Shown: one piece after another, positions 1,926 to 10,961 of the stretch
How positions within the stretch are numbered: position 1 is the stretch's first letter
How the letters are laid out: every line of letters starts with the position of its first letter
DNA from: a virus
Virus genome (UHGV): UHGV-0341487
Reading direction: 5' to 3' (one strand)
DNA length: 11,257 nucleotides
Made by a program: the position numbers and the translations under genes
Notes under the pieces: model-generated
Told to the model about the DNA's origin: nothing
The model's database searches: none
The model's input: the letters and a program-made list of their open reading frames with translations, nothing else

Positions 1926-2217
1926 TGTTTGCCTCCTGAAAAATAACTGCATGCCCCAGCTTCTCCGCCAGCGCCAGTTCTGCCTTAGCGCCTGCTGACC
2001 GCTGCCAGCCTTTCAGCATGTAAATCGCATCAACACAACGAATCATTGCCATGCAAATATCCATGTAGTGTGGCTGTGTCAGCCCGTCCGGAAGTACTGC
2101 CGGGTTTAAGACTGTATGCCCTTCCCGTTTCAGTTCCTCTTCCGCATCGTGGAACGCCTCACGGTTGAAATTTTTATACCCGGTCATCGGACCAGCGATA
2201 TAAATCCTCACCCTCAC
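1918..2217 (-). CDS. DUF4406-like / nucleoside 2-deoxyribosyltransferase-fold protein (99 aa)
   Basis: N-terminal RIYIAGPMTG followed by NP and a GW..S.GA..E pattern, characteristic of the DUF4406 / nucleoside deoxyribosyltransferase-like fold (recalled, not searched). GTG start at 2217 overlaps upstream stop (GTGA); AGGAGG 7 nt upstream. Confidence 0.6.
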   Translation of the reverse strand: MRVRIYIAGPMTGYKNFNREAFHDAEEELKREGHTVLNPAVLPDGLTQPHYMDICMAMIRCVDAIYMLKGWQRSAGAKAELALAEKLGHAVIFQEANSE

Positions 2218-2636
2218 GCCATCACCTCCTGAAAATTACCCTGATAGAACGCCAGCACACGCTGCATAGCTTCGCTCTTCCGGCACTCGCGACAGATTAT
2301 GTTCTGACGCCTGTCGTAGCGGCGTATTTCTCCGTCTGGTAATGACCAGATAAGGTCCGGATCAACCGCAGATGGTTTCTTCAGCTTTGCCCTTGAGAGC
2401 TTTTTACGGGTATTTTGCCAATCCTTACGCGCCTGTTCAGACGGGAATAACCCGTAACCAGAGTTGTATACATCGCCACTGGCAACCAGCTCTCTGGCCA
2501 GAACGCTCATCAGATATCTTGTTGCCCCAGTTTTAGCTTCCAGTTGTCGTAACGTCTCGCGTCCACTCTGGCGTACGAGTTCAAGAACCTGCCCTTTAAT
2601 TTTTTCCCGCTCTTCTTGTGTAAAAACTTTTGCCAC
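2214..2636 (-). CDS. Hypothetical protein (140 aa), possibly winged-helix-like N-terminus
   Basis: ORF-track ORF; GTG start at 2636 preceded by AGGAGG (2646..2641). Sits where lambdoid phages usually carry a helicase loader, but is too short and shows no ATPase motif. Confidence 0.5.
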   Translation of the reverse strand: MAKVFTQEEREKIKGQVLELVRQSGRETLRQLEAKTGATRYLMSVLARELVASGDVYNSGYGLFPSEQARKDWQNTRKKLSRAKLKKPSAVDPDLIWSLPDGEIRRYDRRQNIICRECRKSEAMQRVLAFYQGNFQEVMA

Positions 2637-2676
2637 AAGCCCTCCTGAAAATTACCTCATGACCAGAAATTAACAC

Positions 2677-3747
2677 TTACCCCCTGAAGCCCGGCGGAAT
2701 TTCGTTATCCGGTTCAGAAATATGATTCACACAACGCTGGTTGTTCGTGCTGCTTACCGGGAGCAACCAGGGGTTCTCAAAATTCCGGTCCGGTCCAAAA
2801 AACGTCGTCGCTCGCTGAACAAATTCCGTTCCCGTTTTCCCGGTAGCCGCCAAGTATCTTGCGTAACGCCTCACGCCATCCAGCATGGCCTCTGGTGGCA
2901 CCCCCTCGCGTAATCTGGCCTTCCAGGCACTGAAAGCGGATTTCTTCGGGTTTGCTCCGGCACGCAACGGGTACTCCCGCCAGACCTGTTCGAACACATC
3001 CGGATAATCCACTCGTCCCACAGACTGCCCGGTGCTTTCCGGGACTACCCGATCGGCTTCCCGCTGAATGGCGGAATCGGCTTCAGGCTGCTGCAGTTGG
3101 TGTGATTGCTCCGGCCTTGCGGTCATCACCTGCTGCACAGCGCCCGAATCGGCTTTCAGCGCATACGCTGAATCGGCTTCCGGTGTCGTGCCTGCTGGCT
3201 GACCAGGATTGACGGTCTGAACATCCCCTGCCTGGTTCGTGGCGTTTTTTACGCCATGGACCATAGTGTTTTGATCTTCTTGATCTGTATCTTTATCTGT
3301 ATCTTTATCTGTCGTGACTCGTCGTGACATGTGCGTGACATTTCGTGACGCGCCGTGACAATCGCCATTTTGTTCCCGCTTTCTTTCCCTCTCTCGCTGC
3401 GCCCTCTTGCGCTCTGCAGGAGATTTTGCGGTTTGCGAAATATTGCCGTTGTCCTCTTTAAGCACCTGGCGTTTTTCCCATCCAGTGATTAAATCACCAT
3501 CAAGTACCCGCCCCTGCATCGTCTGCAAAATTGAATCAATTACCTCTTCTGTCACGTCGAGCGCACTTGCCAAATCTTCTGTCGTGACATCAATGTGACC
3601 TCGCGTGACATTTCGTGACGCGCTCACCAGGAGGTGGATATACACTGCCATCACTGTTGCAATTGGCTGCCCTGACACCCTGGCAATTGTTCGCCACTTA
3701 GGGTCATTTGGCATGTCATGCCATAATCTGAGCCAGGCGTTAGCCAT
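2677..3747 (-). CDS. Phage replication initiator (lambda O-like functional analogue) with origin iterons inside its coding sequence
   Basis: ORF-track ORF 2677..3753; start moved to ATG at 3747..3745, 5 nt after GAGGTG. Position directly downstream of the cro-like/YdaT-like genes. Two clusters of CGTGAC iterons lie inside the gene and are mirrored in the protein as RNVTRGHIDVTT and RNVTHMSRRVTTDKDTDKDTD. Confidence 0.7.
   Translation of the reverse strand: MANAWLRLWHDMPNDPKWRTIARVSGQPIATVMAVYIHLLVSASRNVTRGHIDVTTEDLASALDVTEEVIDSILQTMQGRVLDGDLITGWEKRQVLKEDNGNISQTAKSPAERKRAQRERERKREQNGDCHGASRNVTHMSRRVTTDKDTDKDTDQEDQNTMVHGVKNATNQAGDVQTVNPGQPAGTTPEADSAYALKADSGAVQQVMTARPEQSHQLQQPEADSAIQREADRVVPESTGQSVGRVDYPDVFEQVWREYPLRAGANPKKSAFSAWKARLREGVPPEAMLDGVRRYARYLAATGKTGTEFVQRATTFFGPDRNFENPWLLPVSSTNNQRCVNHISEPDNEIPPGFRG
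3283..3359. repeat. Origin-like repeat block: two tandem 12-bp ATCTGTATCTTT units plus a third diverged unit (3307-3318) that overlaps the first of five CGTGAC iterons at about 10-bp spacing
   Basis: Seen in sequence: atctgtatcttt at 3283-3294 and 3295-3306; cgtgac at 3313, 3323, 3334, 3344, 3354. Helical-turn spacing puts the sites on one face of the DNA. Confidence 0.65.
3583..3623. repeat. Second iteron cluster (CGTGAC/TGTGAC, four copies at 10-11 bp spacing), with a 20-bp exact copy of an iteron pair from the first cluster
   Basis: cgtgacatttcgtgacgcgc occurs at 3334-3353 and again at 3604-3623; additional copies at 3583 and 3594; an inverted gtcacg at 3551. Confidence 0.6.
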
Positions 3748-3818
3748 ACTCACCTCTTTTGATACCGAATCTTTTTACTCACAAATTGCCGGAAGTGATC
3801 CGGTATGAATATTGCGAG

Positions 3819-4244
3819 TCAATGCACAGCCACAATATTTCCTGCAGGGCCACCACGATTCATCTGGTTGAAACCAGCGATCGCCACTGCGACAAAATCA
3901 TCAGCGTCTCTCACCAGTCGTTCCCGCGTCTCCACTAGTTCCCGAAAATAGGCTGAGCTATGACTGCGCATTCGGGCCACCAGCAGAGGTGGCATTGCTT
4001 TTTCGATAGCTGGTAACAACGCCTGAATTTTTTTAACCGCATCAGGGGTGTCTTTCTCCACCCAGCGGAAAATTTTCTGAGTATTGCGAGCTAGGGCTTC
4101 CGGATGGCTGTCGTCATACAGTTCCGGGAACGTCATTCCCAGCTCGAAATACGCTTTGGTAATTTTCGCAGCCGGTACTTTTTCGCCGTCCGGATGCGCC
4201 CAGGCATTCATCGCCATGCGGATATGTTCATGTTTGATTTTCAT
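3819..4244 (-). CDS. YdaT-like prophage protein (CII-position gene), 141 aa
   Basis: Begins MKIKHEHI and sits immediately downstream of the cro-like gene with an ATGA start/stop overlap, as ydaT follows ydaS in Rac. Family assignment is from memory of the YdaT N-terminus and gene position, not a search. Confidence 0.55.
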   Translation of the reverse strand: MKIKHEHIRMAMNAWAHPDGEKVPAAKITKAYFELGMTFPELYDDSHPEALARNTQKIFRWVEKDTPDAVKKIQALLPAIEKAMPPLLVARMRSHSSAYFRELVETRERLVRDADDFVAVAIAGFNQMNRGGPAGNIVAVH

Positions 4245-4468
4245 GAATCACTCTTCCTTTTGTCCCGGGTGGTATCCTTCTTTTTGTAAAGCTCTGGGTT
4301 CAAAGATAATTTTCCCTTGGAGTATGCAGCAGCTTCCGCAGCTCTCCCTTTCGGAACTATTTCACCGGGGCGCTTACGCCACATGTAAATAGCTTCGCGG
4401 GTTATCCCATAAAAATCAGCGACCCTCTGAACAGAGCCAAAAAACTGAACAAGTTCATCAACTCGCAT
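4241..4468 (-). CDS. Cro/DicC-like small HTH regulator (75 aa)
   Basis: Divergent from the repressor gene; FGSxxxxAxxxGIxxxxxYxWxxxxxxVPxGRA pattern resembles DicC/Cro-type proteins; basic C-terminal tail; SD GGAGAG 5 nt upstream of ATG at 4468. Confidence 0.7.
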   Translation of the reverse strand: MRVDELVQFFGSVQRVADFYGITREAIYMWRKRPGEIVPKGRAAEAAAYSKGKLSLNPELYKKKDTTRDKRKSDS

Positions 4469-4564: not shown

Positions 4565-5212
4565 ATGATGGAAAGCCTTGGCATCAGGCTTAAGAAACTC
4601 AGAAAAGATAAGGGACTCACCCAAGTAGAACTGGGTAAGCTTTCAGGCGTGACTGGGGTTACTATAGGGTACTGGGAGAAAGATCTAAACGAACCCGGCA
4701 GCAAAGCTCTAAGTAAGTTAGCCCAGGCATTAGGAACTACTGAGTCCTATCTCCTGTATGGAGTATCGTCTCCTGAACTATCTTTTGTGCAGAGCAATCC
4801 AGGCACCAAGATCCCCTACTTTTCGTGGGGTGACGCGATTTCTTTCCTAATCTTAGAAGGAGAGAAAACAATGGGAAATGTCGATAGGATCACCACATTC
4901 TTTGATGTAGTGGAAGGTGATTTTGCCGTTTCAATGCCTGATGACACTATGCATAACCCCTCAGGGTCACCAAGTATCCCGGTTGGTGCCACTGTGATCC
5001 TAAGACCAGGAGAGAGTTATAAAAATGGCAGTATCGTCGCTGTAATAGTTCCAGATCCACTTACAAATGAACCGTCTATGACTATAAAAAAATTAGTTAT
5101 TGATGGAAAACTTGTGTATTTAAGCCCTCTCAATCCGCGCTATCAATCATCCTTGCTTACGCCAGAGTGTAAAATTGTTGCCGTAGCAAAAGGTGTGCAG
5201 TTCAACCTATAA
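4565..5212 (+). CDS. cI-type prophage repressor (HTH_XRE N-domain plus S24 LexA-like autopeptidase C-domain)
   Basis: N-terminal LTQVELGKLSGVTGVTIGYWE helix-turn-helix; C-terminal AVSMPDD (Ser nucleophile context) and TIKKLV (Lys) typical of the LexA/cI self-cleaving domain. The ATG at 4568 has better SD spacing than 4565, so the true start may be 4568. Confidence 0.85.
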   Translation: MMESLGIRLKKLRKDKGLTQVELGKLSGVTGVTIGYWEKDLNEPGSKALSKLAQALGTTESYLLYGVSSPELSFVQSNPGTKIPYFSWGDAISFLILEGEKTMGNVDRITTFFDVVEGDFAVSMPDDTMHNPSGSPSIPVGATVILRPGESYKNGSIVAVIVPDPLTNEPSMTIKKLVIDGKLVYLSPLNPRYQSSLLTPECKIVAVAKGVQFNL

Positions 5213-6363: not shown

Positions 6364-6421
6364 TTTCTGGTGACGTTTGGCGGTATCAGTTTTACTCCGT
6401 GACTGCTCTGCCGCCCTTTTT
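6364..6421 (+). ncRNA. dicF: DicF small regulatory RNA (ftsZ-targeting antisense sRNA) with its own intrinsic terminator
   Basis: Sequence tttctggtgacgtttggcggtatcagttttactccgtgactgctctgccgcccttttt matches my recollection of E. coli DicF; ends in GC stem plus T run; located between ydfC and dicB exactly as in the Qin dicB operon. Confidence 0.8.
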
Positions 6422-9590: not shown

Positions 9591-9794
9591 ATGAGCAGCT
9601 TATTTTTAACCGAAGATGAATTGCTAATATTAACGGGCTGCAAATATGCAAGCCACCAGCGAAAATGGTTAATGGAAAACGGGCTTCCGTTCTATACCAA
9701 TCGTAGTGGCAAACCGATTGTCAGCCGGGATCTATTTACCTGCAATAAAACTTTACCACCACGCGAGGTAGAGCCGAATTTTGGTGCGATCTGA
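9591..9794 (+). CDS. xis: Excisionase-like protein (DUF4224-type small DNA-binding protein)
   Basis: 67-aa ORF immediately upstream of int; its stop overlaps the int start (ATGA at 9792-9796); LTEDELLILTGCKYASHQRKWL resembles the small proteins found upstream of lambdoid integrases (from memory). Confidence 0.7.
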   Translation: MSSLFLTEDELLILTGCKYASHQRKWLMENGLPFYTNRSGKPIVSRDLFTCNKTLPPREVEPNFGAI

Positions 9795-10819
9795 TGGGAA
9801 GACGAAGGAAAAATCCTGAACACGAAAAATTACCTCCAAATGTATACCCAAATAAATATAGTTATGTATGGAAACCAACATCCAGAGAATCTGTCACACT
9901 AACCGCCATCAAGGATGGTTTAGCTGCTTTATGGAAAAAGTATGAGGAAACTGTAAATAATCGCGATCGTGCAATGACATTCGGTCGCTTGTGGGAAAAA
10001 TTCCTCGCCAGCGCCTATTACAGTGACCTTAGTCCAAGAACACAAAAAGATTATCTGCAACATCAAAAAAAGTTGCTTGCCGTATTCGGTAAGGTACCAG
10101 CGGATTCCATAAAACCAGAACACATCCGTCGATACATGGACAAAAGAGGGGAGCAGAGTAAAACGCAAGCCAACCATGAAAAAAGCAGTATGTCCCGTGT
10201 TTACAGTTGGGGGTATGAGCGAGGGTACGTGAAGGCTAACCCATGTGCAGGTGTAAGTAAATTCAAGGCCAAAAACCGCGAACGATATGTAACCGACAAA
10301 GAATACCAGGCAGTATTAAGCGTTGCACCTCTTCCTGTTTTTATCGCAATGGAAATTGCCTATCTGTGTGCAGCGAGGGTTTCCGATGTGTTATCGCTGA
10401 AATGGGAACAGATTGGAAACGACGGGATATTCATCCAGCAAGGGAAAACCGGAAAAAAACAGATAAAAGCATGGAGTCCACGATTACAGGCAGCGATCGA
10501 AAAAGCAAAACAGTTGCCAAAATCTGCCTATGTGATCAGCAATCAATACGGCAACCGATATATGTACAAAGGCTTTAACGAAATGTGGGTAGATGCAAGA
10601 AATCGTGCTGGAAAAATTTCAGGTATTTTAACCGACTTCACCTTTCATGATCTGAAGGCGAAAGGAATTTCAGACTATGAAGGAAGCAGCCGGGATAAGC
10701 AACTTTTCTCTGGTCACAAAACCGAAGGGCAAGTGCTAATCTATGACAGGAAGGTTAAAGTTTCACCAACACTTGATGTCCCGTTACCTGAAAATATTCC
10801 AAGAAAATATTCCAAGTAA
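9794..10819 (+). CDS. int: Tyrosine site-specific integrase, lambda Int family
   Basis: N-terminal MGRRRKNPEHEKLPPNVY parallels lambda Int MGRRRSHERRDLPPNLY; catalytic-region residues are alignable (AARVSDV Arg, QQGKTG Lys, FHDLK, LFSGH, LIYDRK Tyr). Adjacent to a tRNA gene. Confidence 0.9.
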   Translation: MGRRRKNPEHEKLPPNVYPNKYSYVWKPTSRESVTLTAIKDGLAALWKKYEETVNNRDRAMTFGRLWEKFLASAYYSDLSPRTQKDYLQHQKKLLAVFGKVPADSIKPEHIRRYMDKRGEQSKTQANHEKSSMSRVYSWGYERGYVKANPCAGVSKFKAKNRERYVTDKEYQAVLSVAPLPVFIAMEIAYLCAARVSDVLSLKWEQIGNDGIFIQQGKTGKKQIKAWSPRLQAAIEKAKQLPKSAYVISNQYGNRYMYKGFNEMWVDARNRAGKISGILTDFTFHDLKAKGISDYEGSSRDKQLFSGHKTEGQVLIYDRKVKVSPTLDVPLPENIPRKYSK

Positions 10820-10871: not shown

Positions 10872-10961
10872 TGGCGGAGAGAGGGGGATTTGAACCCCCG
10901 GTGGAGTTGCCCCCACTCCGGTTTTCGAGACCGGTCCGTTCAGCCGCTCCGGCATCTCTCC
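10872..10961 (-). tRNA. serU: tRNA-Ser (anticodon CGA), class II tRNA with long variable arm and encoded CCA
   Basis: Reverse complement reads GGAGAGATGCCGGAGCGGCTGAACGGACCGGTCTCGAAAACCGGAGTGGGGGCAACTCCACCGGGGGTTCAAATCCCCCTCTCTCCGCCA: 7-bp acceptor stem GGAGAGA/TCTCTCC, anticodon loop CUCGAAA, TpsiC arm GGGGGTTCAAATCCCCC. Confidence 0.93.

What the first reader, a model, noticed from the sequence alone, without database searches (positions are those of the whole stretch)
3283..3623. Replication origin embedded in the initiator gene: two iteron clusters sharing a 20-bp exact repeat, plus tandem 12-mers
Five CGTGAC iterons at helical-turn spacing (3313-3359) and four more (3583-3620) sit inside the O-like coding sequence and are mirrored as repeated RNVT/RRVTT/DKDTDKDTD peptide segments; cgtgacatttcgtgacgcgc is duplicated exactly 270 bp apart. 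Lambda ori has one iteron block; two separated blocks suggest a bipartite origin or looping between the clusters.
Basis: partly seen in the sequence, partly recalled or inferred. Interest (0 to 1): 0.45.

Follow-up and report, generated by a model that had tools for sequence, protein, structure and literature searches.

The report
Two-array phage origin inside initiator gene
A prophage replication-initiator gene carries two phased arrays of a 6-base motif, one of them inside the part that codes for the protein's own DNA-binding domain; related phages keep the layout but change the motif, so this is very likely the phage replication origin in an undescribed two-part form.

Summary
On the + strand, CGTGAC occurs at 3313/3323/3334/3344/3354 (array B). 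It occurs again at 3583/3604/3614, with TGTGAC at 3594 (array A), and one inverted copy at 3551. An exact 20-mer sits 270 bp apart, and three tandem 12-mers lie in the most AT-rich stretch of the gene.

The gene (2677-3747, minus strand) encodes a phage "replisome organizer". It has a DnaD-NTD-like winged-helix N-domain, a disordered linker and a DnaT-like C-domain. It is not a lambda O homologue.

The hexamers fall in all three reading frames at 10/11-nt spacing. In 23 diverged relatives, the codons under array A are almost frozen at synonymous sites, while other conserved codons vary freely.

I compared 126 non-redundant relatives. The dominant linker hexamer recurs in the N-domain coding region 191 times against 5.8 expected. 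The motif switches between lineages in both arrays together (GTCACG, GCAACG, GTAACG, GTGACG, CGAACGC). An AT-rich tract follows array B only. About half the family lacks array A.

Best reading: array B plus the AT-rich repeats is a lambda/SPP1-style origin core, and array A is a conserved auxiliary initiator-binding array. Binding and looping are inferred, not shown. This is a new variant of a known kind.

The parts
2677..3747 (-). Initiator ('phage replisome organizer') gene, 356 aa. Start is the ATG at 3747, with AGAGGTGA 5 nt upstream. Codons 1-127 form a winged-helix N-domain, 128-243 a disordered linker, and 244-356 a DnaT-CTD-like domain.
3313..3359 (-). Array B: five direct GTCACG hexamers (read on the coding strand) at 10/11-nt spacing, in linker codons 130-145. 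Proposed core initiator-binding sites of the origin.
   Evidence: An equivalent array with >=3 copies is present in 113 of 126 non-redundant relatives. Spacing across the family is 10 nt (169 cases) or 11 nt (32 cases).
3260..3313 (.). AT-rich tract directly downstream of array B in the direction of the gene. It contains three tandem 12-mers (3278-3313, GATAAAGATACA on the coding strand, peptide DKDT) and two GATC sites (3273, 3282). Proposed DNA unwinding element.
   Evidence: Lowest GC of the gene, 0.325. Tandem 12-mers. GATC sites. Across the family, the 50 nt after array B average GC 0.435 against 0.583 for the gene, and 87 of 113 loci are at least 8 points lower. AGATAA/CAGATA tandem repeats recur at this place in many lineages.
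3583..3623 (-). Array A: four phased hexamers (three GTCACG plus one GTCACA on the coding strand), in codons 43-56 of the N-domain (end of helix 29-45 and the following loop). It includes the second copy of the exact 20-mer (3604-3623). Proposed auxiliary initiator-binding array.
   Evidence: Codon entropy under the array is 0.26-0.68 bits against 1.6-2.6 bits elsewhere. The same positions hold the motif in Aeromonas and Pseudomonas phages. Other lineages carry a different hexamer in both arrays. The structural position is a loop.
3551..3556 (+). Single inverted copy of the hexamer, 27 nt downstream of array A in the direction of the gene, in codons 64-66 (the turn of the helix-turn-helix).
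   Evidence: It is conserved at gene nt 193 in the Aeromonas and Pseudomonas relatives and at nt 195 (as GCAACG) in Ralstonia phage Firinga. V65 is GTG in 21 of 22 relatives.
3233..3263 (.). 13-bp-stem inverted repeat (TGGTTCGTGGCGT/ACGCCATGGACCA, 5-nt loop) that abuts the AT-rich tract. It may belong to the origin; its role is unknown.
   Evidence: (pair I12). As single-stranded DNA, dG is -12.7 kcal/mol and z is -5.8. It is retained in phage PhiR5_2, which has an unrelated N-domain, with one compensatory T:A to A:T change.

Best explanation
The region is the replication origin of a lambdoid E. coli prophage, built into the coding sequence of its own initiator.

Proposed mechanism (inferred): the initiator's N-terminal winged-helix domain binds a ~6-bp core, GTCACG, repeated once per helical turn. 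Monomers would therefore line up head-to-tail on one face of the DNA.

Array B (five copies) lies in the part of the gene that codes for a disordered linker. It is followed at once by an AT-rich tandem-repeat tract, and together these form the origin core where the duplex opens. This is the lambda and SPP1 oriL logic.

Array A (four direct copies and one inverted copy) lies about 230 bp upstream, inside the coding sequence for the winged-helix domain itself. It is a second set of binding sites for the same domain. It most likely joins the same nucleoprotein complex by looping or wrapping the intervening DNA, which would stabilise or tune origin firing.

The DnaT-like C-terminal domains, tethered by long flexible linkers, would then coat the opened AT-rich single strand and hand it to the host DnaB/DnaC machinery. 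This phage encodes no helicase or loader of its own.

Shown here: the repeats, their phasing, DNA-level selection on them, co-variation of both arrays with the N-domain lineage, the AT-rich tract and the domain architecture. Inferred: that the initiator binds them, that unwinding occurs at the AT-rich tract, that the arrays loop, and the DnaT-like hand-off.
For: (1) Enrichment and clustering: 11 copies against 3.56 expected, 0 of 200 shuffles reach this. These are the only motif clusters in a 36.7-kb phage genome.

(2) The repeat is a DNA-level feature, not a peptide repeat. The copies occupy reading frames 2,0,1,0 in array A and 1,2,0,2,0 in array B, at 10/11-nt spacing.

(3) In 23 relatives that are <90% identical at the DNA level, the only conserved 4- or 6-fold degenerate codons with entropy below 1 bit are A43, S44, V47, T48, G50, V54, T55 and V65, all of them inside hexamers. 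Thirty-five other such codons average 1.98 bits (minimum 1.44). Third positions that fall in spacers (R49, T66) vary freely.

(4) Aeromonas phage pAEv1818 and Pseudomonas phage phi1 have ~70% identical N-domains but different C-domains and different neighbouring genes. Both keep GTCAC(G) at gene nt 129/139/149/160, an inverted copy at 193, and 3-4 copies at 388-418.

(5) The motif co-varies in both arrays: Firinga has GCAACG at 130-161 and 401-431; a Manatee Spring virus has CGAACGC in both; P0089 has GTAACG 4+4. Over 113 loci the top linker hexamer recurs in the N-domain region 191 times against 5.8 expected, and 53 loci have at least 2 copies there.

(6) The motif travels with the N-domain, not the C-domain: PhiR5_2 has the same C-domain, another N-domain and no GTCACG.

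(7) An AT-rich tract follows array B, both in the window (GC 0.325) and across the family (0.435 against 0.583).

(8) Both arrays map to protein segments that tolerate change, a loop (aa 46-55) and a disordered linker. Natural variants gain or lose 7 codons, which is 21 nt or two iterons; P0003 has 6+6 copies.

(9) The distance from the last copy of A to the first copy of B falls on a 10.0-10.5-nt ladder. Rayleigh R is 0.59-0.61 over all loci, and R=0.49 with p=5e-4 for unique distances. There is no signal at 11.5-13 nt.

(11) Precedents: ori-lambda is iterons plus an AT-rich tract in the middle of gene O (PMC7466680, PMC6022878). SPP1 oriL is direct repeats plus a DUE inside gene 38 (PMC5737612, PMC6316719).
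Against: No binding, footprint or origin-mapping data exist for this family; five literature searches found nothing. About half of the family (60 of 113 loci) has an array B but fewer than 2 copies of the motif in the array-A region, so array A cannot be essential to the basic mechanism. No AT-rich tract follows array A. The phase ladder is partly produced by missed degenerate copies and by shared ancestry, so it is only suggestive. Conservation alone cannot separate a DNA-level from an RNA-level function. The N-domain match to Pfam Phage_rep_org_N is below threshold, and Foldseek found no significant PDB match.
Confidence: 0.7

Rival explanations
1. Array B plus the AT-rich tract is the origin, but array A is a control element rather than part of the firing complex. 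Initiator bound there would act as a roadblock or operator inside its own gene (negative autoregulation of pR-derived transcription). Alternatively it would titrate or handcuff initiator, as the extra iteron arrays of P1 (incA) and F (incC) do, or act as a fork barrier, as proposed for gp38 bound at SPP1 oriR.
For: Array A has no adjacent AT-rich tract. It lies upstream of the origin core, in the path of transcription from the cro-side promoter (gene order). It is dispensable in about half of the family. It carries an inverted copy that array B lacks. For SPP1, gp38 bound at a second site is proposed to stall forks and trigger the theta-to-sigma switch (PMC6316719). The plasmid incA/incC precedent comes from my own knowledge and was not checked here.
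Against: The ~10-10.5-nt ladder of A-to-B distances fits face-of-helix cooperation between the arrays better than an independent operator. A lytic phage has no obvious need for copy-number restraint. No expression data exist.
Confidence: 0.25
2. The DNA repeats are a by-product of repeated peptide motifs (ASRNVT, SRRVT, DKDT) or of replication slippage in a low-complexity linker, with no function as DNA.
For: The repeats are translated. The linker is disordered and varies in length. The 12-mers and the GAAGCCGAT repeats are in frame.
Against: The hexamers occupy all three frames at 10/11-nt spacing, not 3n. Synonymous positions inside the hexamers are frozen while neighbouring ones drift. Array A lies in a folded domain, not in a low-complexity region. 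Different lineages carry different hexamers at the same two places, with different peptides. Lineages without array A keep the loop pattern A-S-x4-R-G with ordinary codons.
Confidence: 0.03
3. The hexamers act in the mRNA, for example as binding sites for a translational regulator or as elements of an RNA structure, rather than in duplex DNA.
For: All direct copies are on the coding strand. The inverted copy could pair with a direct copy through a 7-nt stem.
Against: A one-helical-turn period, an adjoining AT-rich tract and the position in the initiator gene are hallmarks of double-stranded origin iterons (PMC7466680, PMC5737612). The possible stem is short. Rfam finds no family there.
Confidence: 0.04

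Closest known systems
Bacteriophage lambda ori-lambda / O protein (and the Stx-phage variants with six iterons)
   Same: The origin lies inside the initiator gene, in the segment between the DNA-binding N-domain and the partner-binding C-domain. An iteron block is followed directly by an AT-rich unwinding tract. In-frame indels are tolerated there. The N-domain-plus-iteron module and the C-domain module are exchanged independently between phages (PMC7466680, PMC6022878).
   Different: There is no sequence homology to O. The iterons are ~6-bp direct repeats once per turn, not 18-bp hyphenated inverted repeats each bound by an O dimer. There are two arrays ~230 bp apart, one inside the DNA-binding-domain coding region, where lambda has one block. 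The C-domain is DnaT-like, and this phage has no P-type loader.
Bacillus phage SPP1 G38P replisome organizer with oriL and oriR
   Same: The initiator is a non-AAA+ 'replisome organizer' whose binding repeats and DUE are embedded in its own gene, and the genome holds a second set of binding sites for the same protein (PMC5737612, PMC6316719). There is a weak full-length match of the N-domain to Pfam Phage_rep_org_N (E=0.017), and the fold is DnaD-NTD-like.
   Different: The Pfam match is below threshold. The second site is not a distant intergenic origin 13 kb away with its own AT-rich tract. It is ~230 bp upstream in the same gene and has no AT-rich tract. The C-domain is DnaT-like, and this phage has no helicase or loader gene.
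Iteron plasmids with auxiliary iteron arrays (P1 incC/incA, F ori2/incC, R6K); from my own knowledge, not checked here
   Different: Plasmid iterons are ~17-22 bp, spaced about two turns apart, and lie outside the coding sequence. The auxiliary arrays are known negative regulators. Here the repeats are 6-bp cores, one per turn, both arrays are translated, and the role of the second is unknown.
E. coli DnaT (primosomal protein I), C-terminal domain
   Same: The C-terminal ~100 residues are homologous (PDB 6aep E=2.8e-7, 2ru8, 9zbt). The tail VNHISEPDNEIPPGFRG matches DnaT's VN(T/S)VSEPD(S/N)(Q/H)IPPGFRG.
   Different: DnaT's own N-domain is replaced by a sequence-specific winged helix and a long linker that carries the origin. 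DnaT is localised by PriA/PriB at forks (PMC13377028). This protein would be localised by iterons.

Membership tests
Lambda O-type initiator / ori-lambda-type origin | Protein belongs to Pfam Phage_rep_O (PF04492) | tested here: not met
   No Pfam family at E<=0.01 for the full protein. PF04492 is absent even at E<=1 for seven N-domains.
Lambda O-type initiator / ori-lambda-type origin | Origin lies within the initiator gene, between the N- and C-domains, as an iteron block followed directly by an AT-rich tract | tested here: met
   Array B is at codons 130-145 of the disordered linker (aa 128-243). The adjacent 3260-3319 stretch has GC 0.325. The same pattern holds in 87 of 113 relatives.
Lambda O-type initiator / ori-lambda-type origin | Iterons are ~18-19-bp hyphenated inverted repeats, each bound by an O dimer, in a single block | tested here: not met
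   The repeats are direct, with a 6-bp conserved core at 10/11-nt spacing, and flanking information is at most 0.68 bit. There are two blocks.
Lambda O-type initiator / ori-lambda-type origin | C-domain recruits a phage P-type helicase loader encoded downstream | tested here: not met
   The downstream gene is DUF977/Ren-like. No helicase or loader is annotated in the 36.7-kb phage with the identical gene. The C-domain is DnaT-like.
SPP1 G38P-type replisome organizer (Pfam Phage_rep_org_N, PF09681) | N-domain matches PF09681 above the gathering score | tested here: inconclusive
   E=0.017 and 15.6 bits against a cut-off of 23.3, but the match covers residues 5-123 against profile positions 1-119 of 121. 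PHROG replisome-organizer families match weakly. NCBI names the protein 'phage replisome organizer'.
SPP1 G38P-type replisome organizer (Pfam Phage_rep_org_N, PF09681) | Direct repeats plus a DUE inside its own gene act as the origin and are bound by the N-domain | not testable with these tools
   The sequence anatomy fits. Binding and origin activity need experiments.
SPP1 G38P-type replisome organizer (Pfam Phage_rep_org_N, PF09681) | A second, distant binding region (oriR-like) elsewhere in the genome | tested here: not met
   The only motif clusters in the 36.7-kb genome are the two arrays within the gene.
Winged-helix DnaD-NTD-like fold | Predicted fold superposes on the DnaD N-terminal domain | tested here: met
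DnaT C-terminal domain (PF17948) | Sequence homology of the C-domain to the DnaT CTD, including the C-terminal tail | tested here: met
   Profile against PDB: 6aep E=2.8e-7, 2ru8 E=1.8e-5, 9zbt E=5.9e-5. NCBIfam DnaT matches the tail. Many relatives carry PF17948. The window protein itself has no Pfam hit.
Iteron-plasmid control arrays (handcuffing type) | The second iteron array lowers initiation by titration or pairing | not testable with these tools
   Only the anatomy is available: array A lacks an AT-rich tract and is absent in about half of the family.

The most novel reading that the evidence does not exclude
Array A is a true overlapping code. The binding sites for a winged-helix domain are written into the codons of that same domain. 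A change of origin specificity then has to be made at once in the recognition surface, in a surface loop of the protein and in two DNA arrays. Functionally, array A would act as a built-in sensor: initiator bound within its own gene loops to the origin core ~22 helical turns away. That would couple transcription through the gene, autoregulation and origin licensing in one structure. No described phage origin has this arrangement.
Probability: 0.3. Interest if true: 0.7.

Novelty: new variant of a known kind. Interest (0 to 1): 0.55.

Why it matters
This initiator is very common. Its 90%-identity cluster has 5,786 member sequences in E. coli and Shigella, and more than 2,800 clusters match the N-domain profile across Proteobacteria and beyond. 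Its origin is not annotated in the two public records whose feature tables were listed here, and I found no paper on it.

The comparative data give a ready-made specificity table: GTCACG, GTAACG, GTGACG, GCAACG, GAAACG and CGAACGC, each paired with its N-domain. That table can be used to work out how a DnaD-type winged helix reads DNA.

The finding also offers a clean natural case of dual coding, with protein and protein-binding site in the same bases and measurable synonymous constraint. It offers a testable model for a phage origin that may load host DnaB through a DnaT-like domain rather than a P or DnaC-type loader.

Practically, it marks where these prophages are likely to start replicating. 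It also warns that synonymous changes in this gene may not be neutral.

Tried and rejected
- **Peptide-repeat explanation:** rejected on the reading-frame and synonymous-site evidence.
- **Lambda O membership:** rejected, no Pfam match.
- **Distant second origin (SPP1 oriR-like):** none found in a whole phage genome.
- **DnaA boxes** (TTATCCACA, up to 1 mismatch) in 2600-3900: none found.
- **Rfam:** no family in the region.
- **Promoter and terminator scan:** counts at chance level. One -35/-10-like match overlaps array B on the antisense strand and was treated as chance.
- **First viral-contig scan:** returned 80 near-identical E. coli prophages and was useless for comparison. A first genome scan failed for lack of a conserved stretch and was repeated with a narrower alignment.
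- **Literature searches** for this family's origin, for GTCACG iterons and for DnaT-like phage organizers: nothing specific.
- **Codon-entropy test in other motif clades:** too few sequences or too few qualifying codons to be informative.
- **Hairpin 3233-3263 in the 126-locus set:** its flanking peptide motif was found only in the enterobacterial lineage.
Full report
**1. What is in the sequence**

The finding lies inside a 356-codon ORF on the minus strand (2677-3747). The start is the ATG at 3747, preceded by AGAGGTGA.

On the + strand, CGTGAC occurs at 3313, 3323, 3334, 3344 and 3354. I call this array B. It occurs again at 3583, 3604 and 3614, with a 5/6 variant (TGTGAC) at 3594. I call this array A. 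One copy in the opposite orientation sits at 3551.

The window holds 11 copies against 3.56 +/- 1.84 expected, and none of 200 shuffles reaches 11. The 20-mer CGTGACATTTCGTGACGCGC is exact at 3334-3353 and 3604-3623. Three tandem 12-mers occupy 3278-3313.

**2. Context**

The gene sits in a lambdoid immunity and replication module. The neighbours are:
- a cI-like repressor at 4565-5212 (+);
- a P22-Cro-like gene at 4241-4468 (-);
- a CII/YdaT-like gene at 3819-4244 (-);
- the initiator itself;
- a DUF977/Ren-like gene at 2214-2636 (-).

Elsewhere the window carries DicF (6365-6416) and a tRNA at its end. The 9794-10819 ORF probably corresponds to the 1,026-bp integrase annotated next to tRNA-Ser in phage vB_EcoS-689R5; this equivalence rests on matching length and position and was not checked by alignment.

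The same gene occurs at 98-100% identity in induced E. coli phages (vB_EcoS-689R5, Tritos, Evi and others). There it is annotated variously as 'replication protein O', 'replisome organiser' or 'primosomal protein I'. No origin feature is annotated in the two records I listed, Tritos and vB_EcoS-689R5.

**3. The protein**

It has no Pfam family above threshold. It matches phrog_3729, 'replication initiation protein', over its full length. NCBI calls it 'phage replisome organizer', and its 90% cluster has 5,786 members.

Structure prediction gives three parts:
- An N-domain (aa 1-~95 plus a basic helix at 110-127). Its elements are helices 16-25 and 29-45, a loop at 46-55, helices 56-63 and 67-77, and a beta-wing at 78-87. 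The N-domain model has pLDDT 77.7.
- A disordered linker at aa 128-243.
- A confidently folded C-domain.

The C-domain is homologous to the C-terminal domain of E. coli DnaT, including the last residues ...SEPDxxIPPGFRG. So the protein works like lambda O but is not a member of that family.

**4. The repeats are a DNA-level feature**

On the coding strand the hexamer GTCACG falls in frames 2,0,1,0 in array A and 1,2,0,2,0 in array B. The spacing is 10 or 11 nt, never a multiple of three. The peptide echoes (SRNVT, SRRVT) follow from this, not the reverse.

I then aligned 23 relatives of the GTCACG lineage that differ by more than 10% at the DNA level. Among all conserved 4- and 6-fold degenerate codons of the N-domain, only A43, S44, V47, T48, G50, V54, T55 and V65 have codon entropy below 1 bit (0.26-0.68). 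Every one of them lies inside a hexamer. The other such codons have 1.6-2.6 bits. Third positions that fall in the spacers (R49, T66) are as free as the rest (re-counted). This is purifying selection on the nucleotides themselves.

**5. Comparative anatomy**

Aeromonas phage pAEv1818 and Pseudomonas phage phi1 have N-domains about 70% identical to this one. Their C-domains and neighbouring genes differ. Both keep GTCAC(G) at gene nt 129/139/149/160, an inverted copy at 193, and three or four copies at 388-418, followed by an A+T-rich GATAAA-type tract.

More distant relatives keep the two-place layout but use another hexamer in both places:
- Ralstonia phage Firinga has GCAACG at 130/140/151/161 (inverted copies at 165 and 195) and at 401/411/421/431.
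- A Manatee Spring virus has CGAACGC in both places.
- A metagenomic relative with the same C-domain as the window has GTAACG four plus four.

I collected 126 non-redundant loci from genomes and viral contigs. In 113 of them the linker region has a dominant hexamer with at least 3 copies. Control windows reach 4 or more copies in only 34 of 2,396 cases. That same hexamer occurs 191 times in the array-A region against 5.8 expected from its density in the flanks. Fifty-three loci have two or more copies there and 42 have three or more.

Successive copies are 10 or 11 nt apart in both arrays throughout the family. The motif follows the N-domain, not the C-domain: phage PhiR5_2 shares the C-domain, has an unrelated N-domain and has no GTCACG. 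The initiator N-domain is the only constant neighbour of the arrays, which makes it the obvious ligand. That is an inference.

**6. Which array is the origin core**

In the window, the 60 nt just downstream of array B (in the direction of the gene) are the most AT-rich of the gene, at GC 0.325. They hold the tandem 12-mers and two GATC sites.

Across the family, the 50 nt after array B average GC 0.435 against 0.583 for the gene, and 87 of 113 loci show the dip. No such dip follows array A (0.52 against 0.56). AGATAA/CAGATA-type tandem repeats recur at this spot in many lineages.

This is the arrangement of ori-lambda (PMC7466680, PMC6022878) and of SPP1 oriL (PMC5737612, PMC6316719). So array B plus the AT-rich tract is the likely origin core.

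A 13-bp-stem inverted repeat (3233-3263; dG -12.7 kcal/mol, z -5.8) abuts the tract. It is kept, with a compensatory change, in PhiR5_2. Its role is open.

**7. What array A is**

It lies in codons 43-56, at the end of helix 29-45 and in the following loop. The inverted copy lies in the helix-turn-helix turn at codons 64-66. These are places where the protein tolerates change. Relatives without array A keep the loop pattern A-S-x4-R-G with ordinary codons. Natural E. coli variants insert 7 codons there, which is 21 nt or two iterons. P0003 has six plus six copies.

About half of the family has no array A, so it is an accessory feature. Where it is present, it is under selection and always matches array B.

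The distance from the last A copy to the first B copy ranges from 105 to 271 nt but falls on a 10.0-10.5-nt ladder. Rayleigh R is 0.59-0.61 over all loci, and R=0.49 with p=5e-4 for the 31 unique distances. There is no signal at 11.5-13 nt. This suggests the arrays are kept on a fixed relative face of the helix, as expected if they cooperate by looping or wrapping. Missed degenerate copies and shared ancestry inflate the signal, so I treat it as suggestive only.

**8. Mechanism proposed**

Winged-helix monomers bind one hexamer per helical turn and form a one-sided filament on array B, and on array A where it is present. The arrays join in one complex. The AT-rich tandem repeats next to array B open. 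The DnaT-like C-domains, held nearby on long flexible linkers, coat the single strand, as the DnaT CTD does in the preprimosome (PMC13377028). They then pass it to host DnaB/DnaC, because the phage encodes no helicase or loader.

Shown here:
- the anatomy of the arrays;
- DNA-level selection on them;
- co-variation of both arrays with the N-domain lineage;
- the domain homologies.

Inferred:
- binding by the initiator;
- the unwinding site;
- looping between the arrays;
- the helicase hand-off.

The main rival is that array A is a control element (autoregulatory roadblock, titration or handcuffing site, or fork barrier). It shares all of the evidence except the phase ladder. I give it about one chance in four.

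**9. Novelty and score**

Origins embedded in initiator genes are textbook, so this is not a new kind of system. Three features appear to be undescribed; five searches found nothing:
- the iteron type, a 6-bp core with one copy per turn in direct orientation;
- a second, co-varying array written into the coding sequence of the initiator's own DNA-binding domain;
- the fusion to a DnaT-like domain in place of a partnership with a P-type loader.

I rate it a new variant of a known kind, with interest 0.55.

Noticed in passing
window 2680-3018 (codons 244-356): The initiator's C-domain is homologous to the C-terminal domain of host DnaT (primosomal protein I). Its last 17 residues, VNHISEPDNEIPPGFRG, nearly copy DnaT's tail. 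The phage with the identical gene has no helicase or loader gene. This suggests helicase loading through a DnaT-like route.
   Followed up: partly
window 3233-3263: A 13-bp-stem inverted repeat abuts the AT-rich tract (dG -12.7 kcal/mol, z -5.8). It is kept in phage PhiR5_2, which has a different N-domain and different repeats, with a compensatory T:A to A:T change. It might be a single-strand hairpin element of the origin.
   Followed up: partly
window 3052-3183: There are four in-frame copies of (G)AAGCCGAT(T) on the coding strand, giving the peptide (E/K)AD(S/R), at spacing 24/72/24 nt in the linker. Natural variants delete exactly one 96-nt unit (P0005). Two copies persist in PhiR5_2. It is not clear whether this is a DNA site or just a linker repeat.
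   Followed up: partly
L001, L005, L094, L100, L139, L151 and others, just after array B: Tandem AGATAA/CAGATA-type hexamer repeats (3-8 copies, peptides DKDKDK or TDTDTD) recur immediately after the linker array in many unrelated lineages. So the AT-rich tract has a conserved repeat character, not just low GC.
   Followed up: partly
protein P0020 (E. coli variant, 302 aa): This variant has a deletion running from the start of array B through the AT-rich tract to the first PEADSA unit. It may be an origin-less, defective prophage copy.
   Followed up: no
window 6365-6416 (+) and 10875-10961 (-): DicF antisense sRNA (76.7 bits) and an 87-nt tRNA at the end of the window. The tRNA may be the tRNA-Ser annotated next to the integrase in phage vB_EcoS-689R5, which would make it the likely attachment site; the window's tRNA was not typed here.
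   Followed up: no
window 3335-3362 (+): A sigma-70-like match (GTGACA, 16 nt, GACAAT; 9 of 12) is formed by the iterons themselves on the antisense strand. The region as a whole has no more promoter-like sites than shuffles do, so this is probably chance.
   Followed up: no
window 3273 and 3282: Two GATC (Dam) sites 9 nt apart lie inside the AT-rich tract (GATCTTCTTGATCTGTATCTTT). From memory, this recalls the GATC-bearing AT-rich 13-mers of oriC.
   Followed up: no
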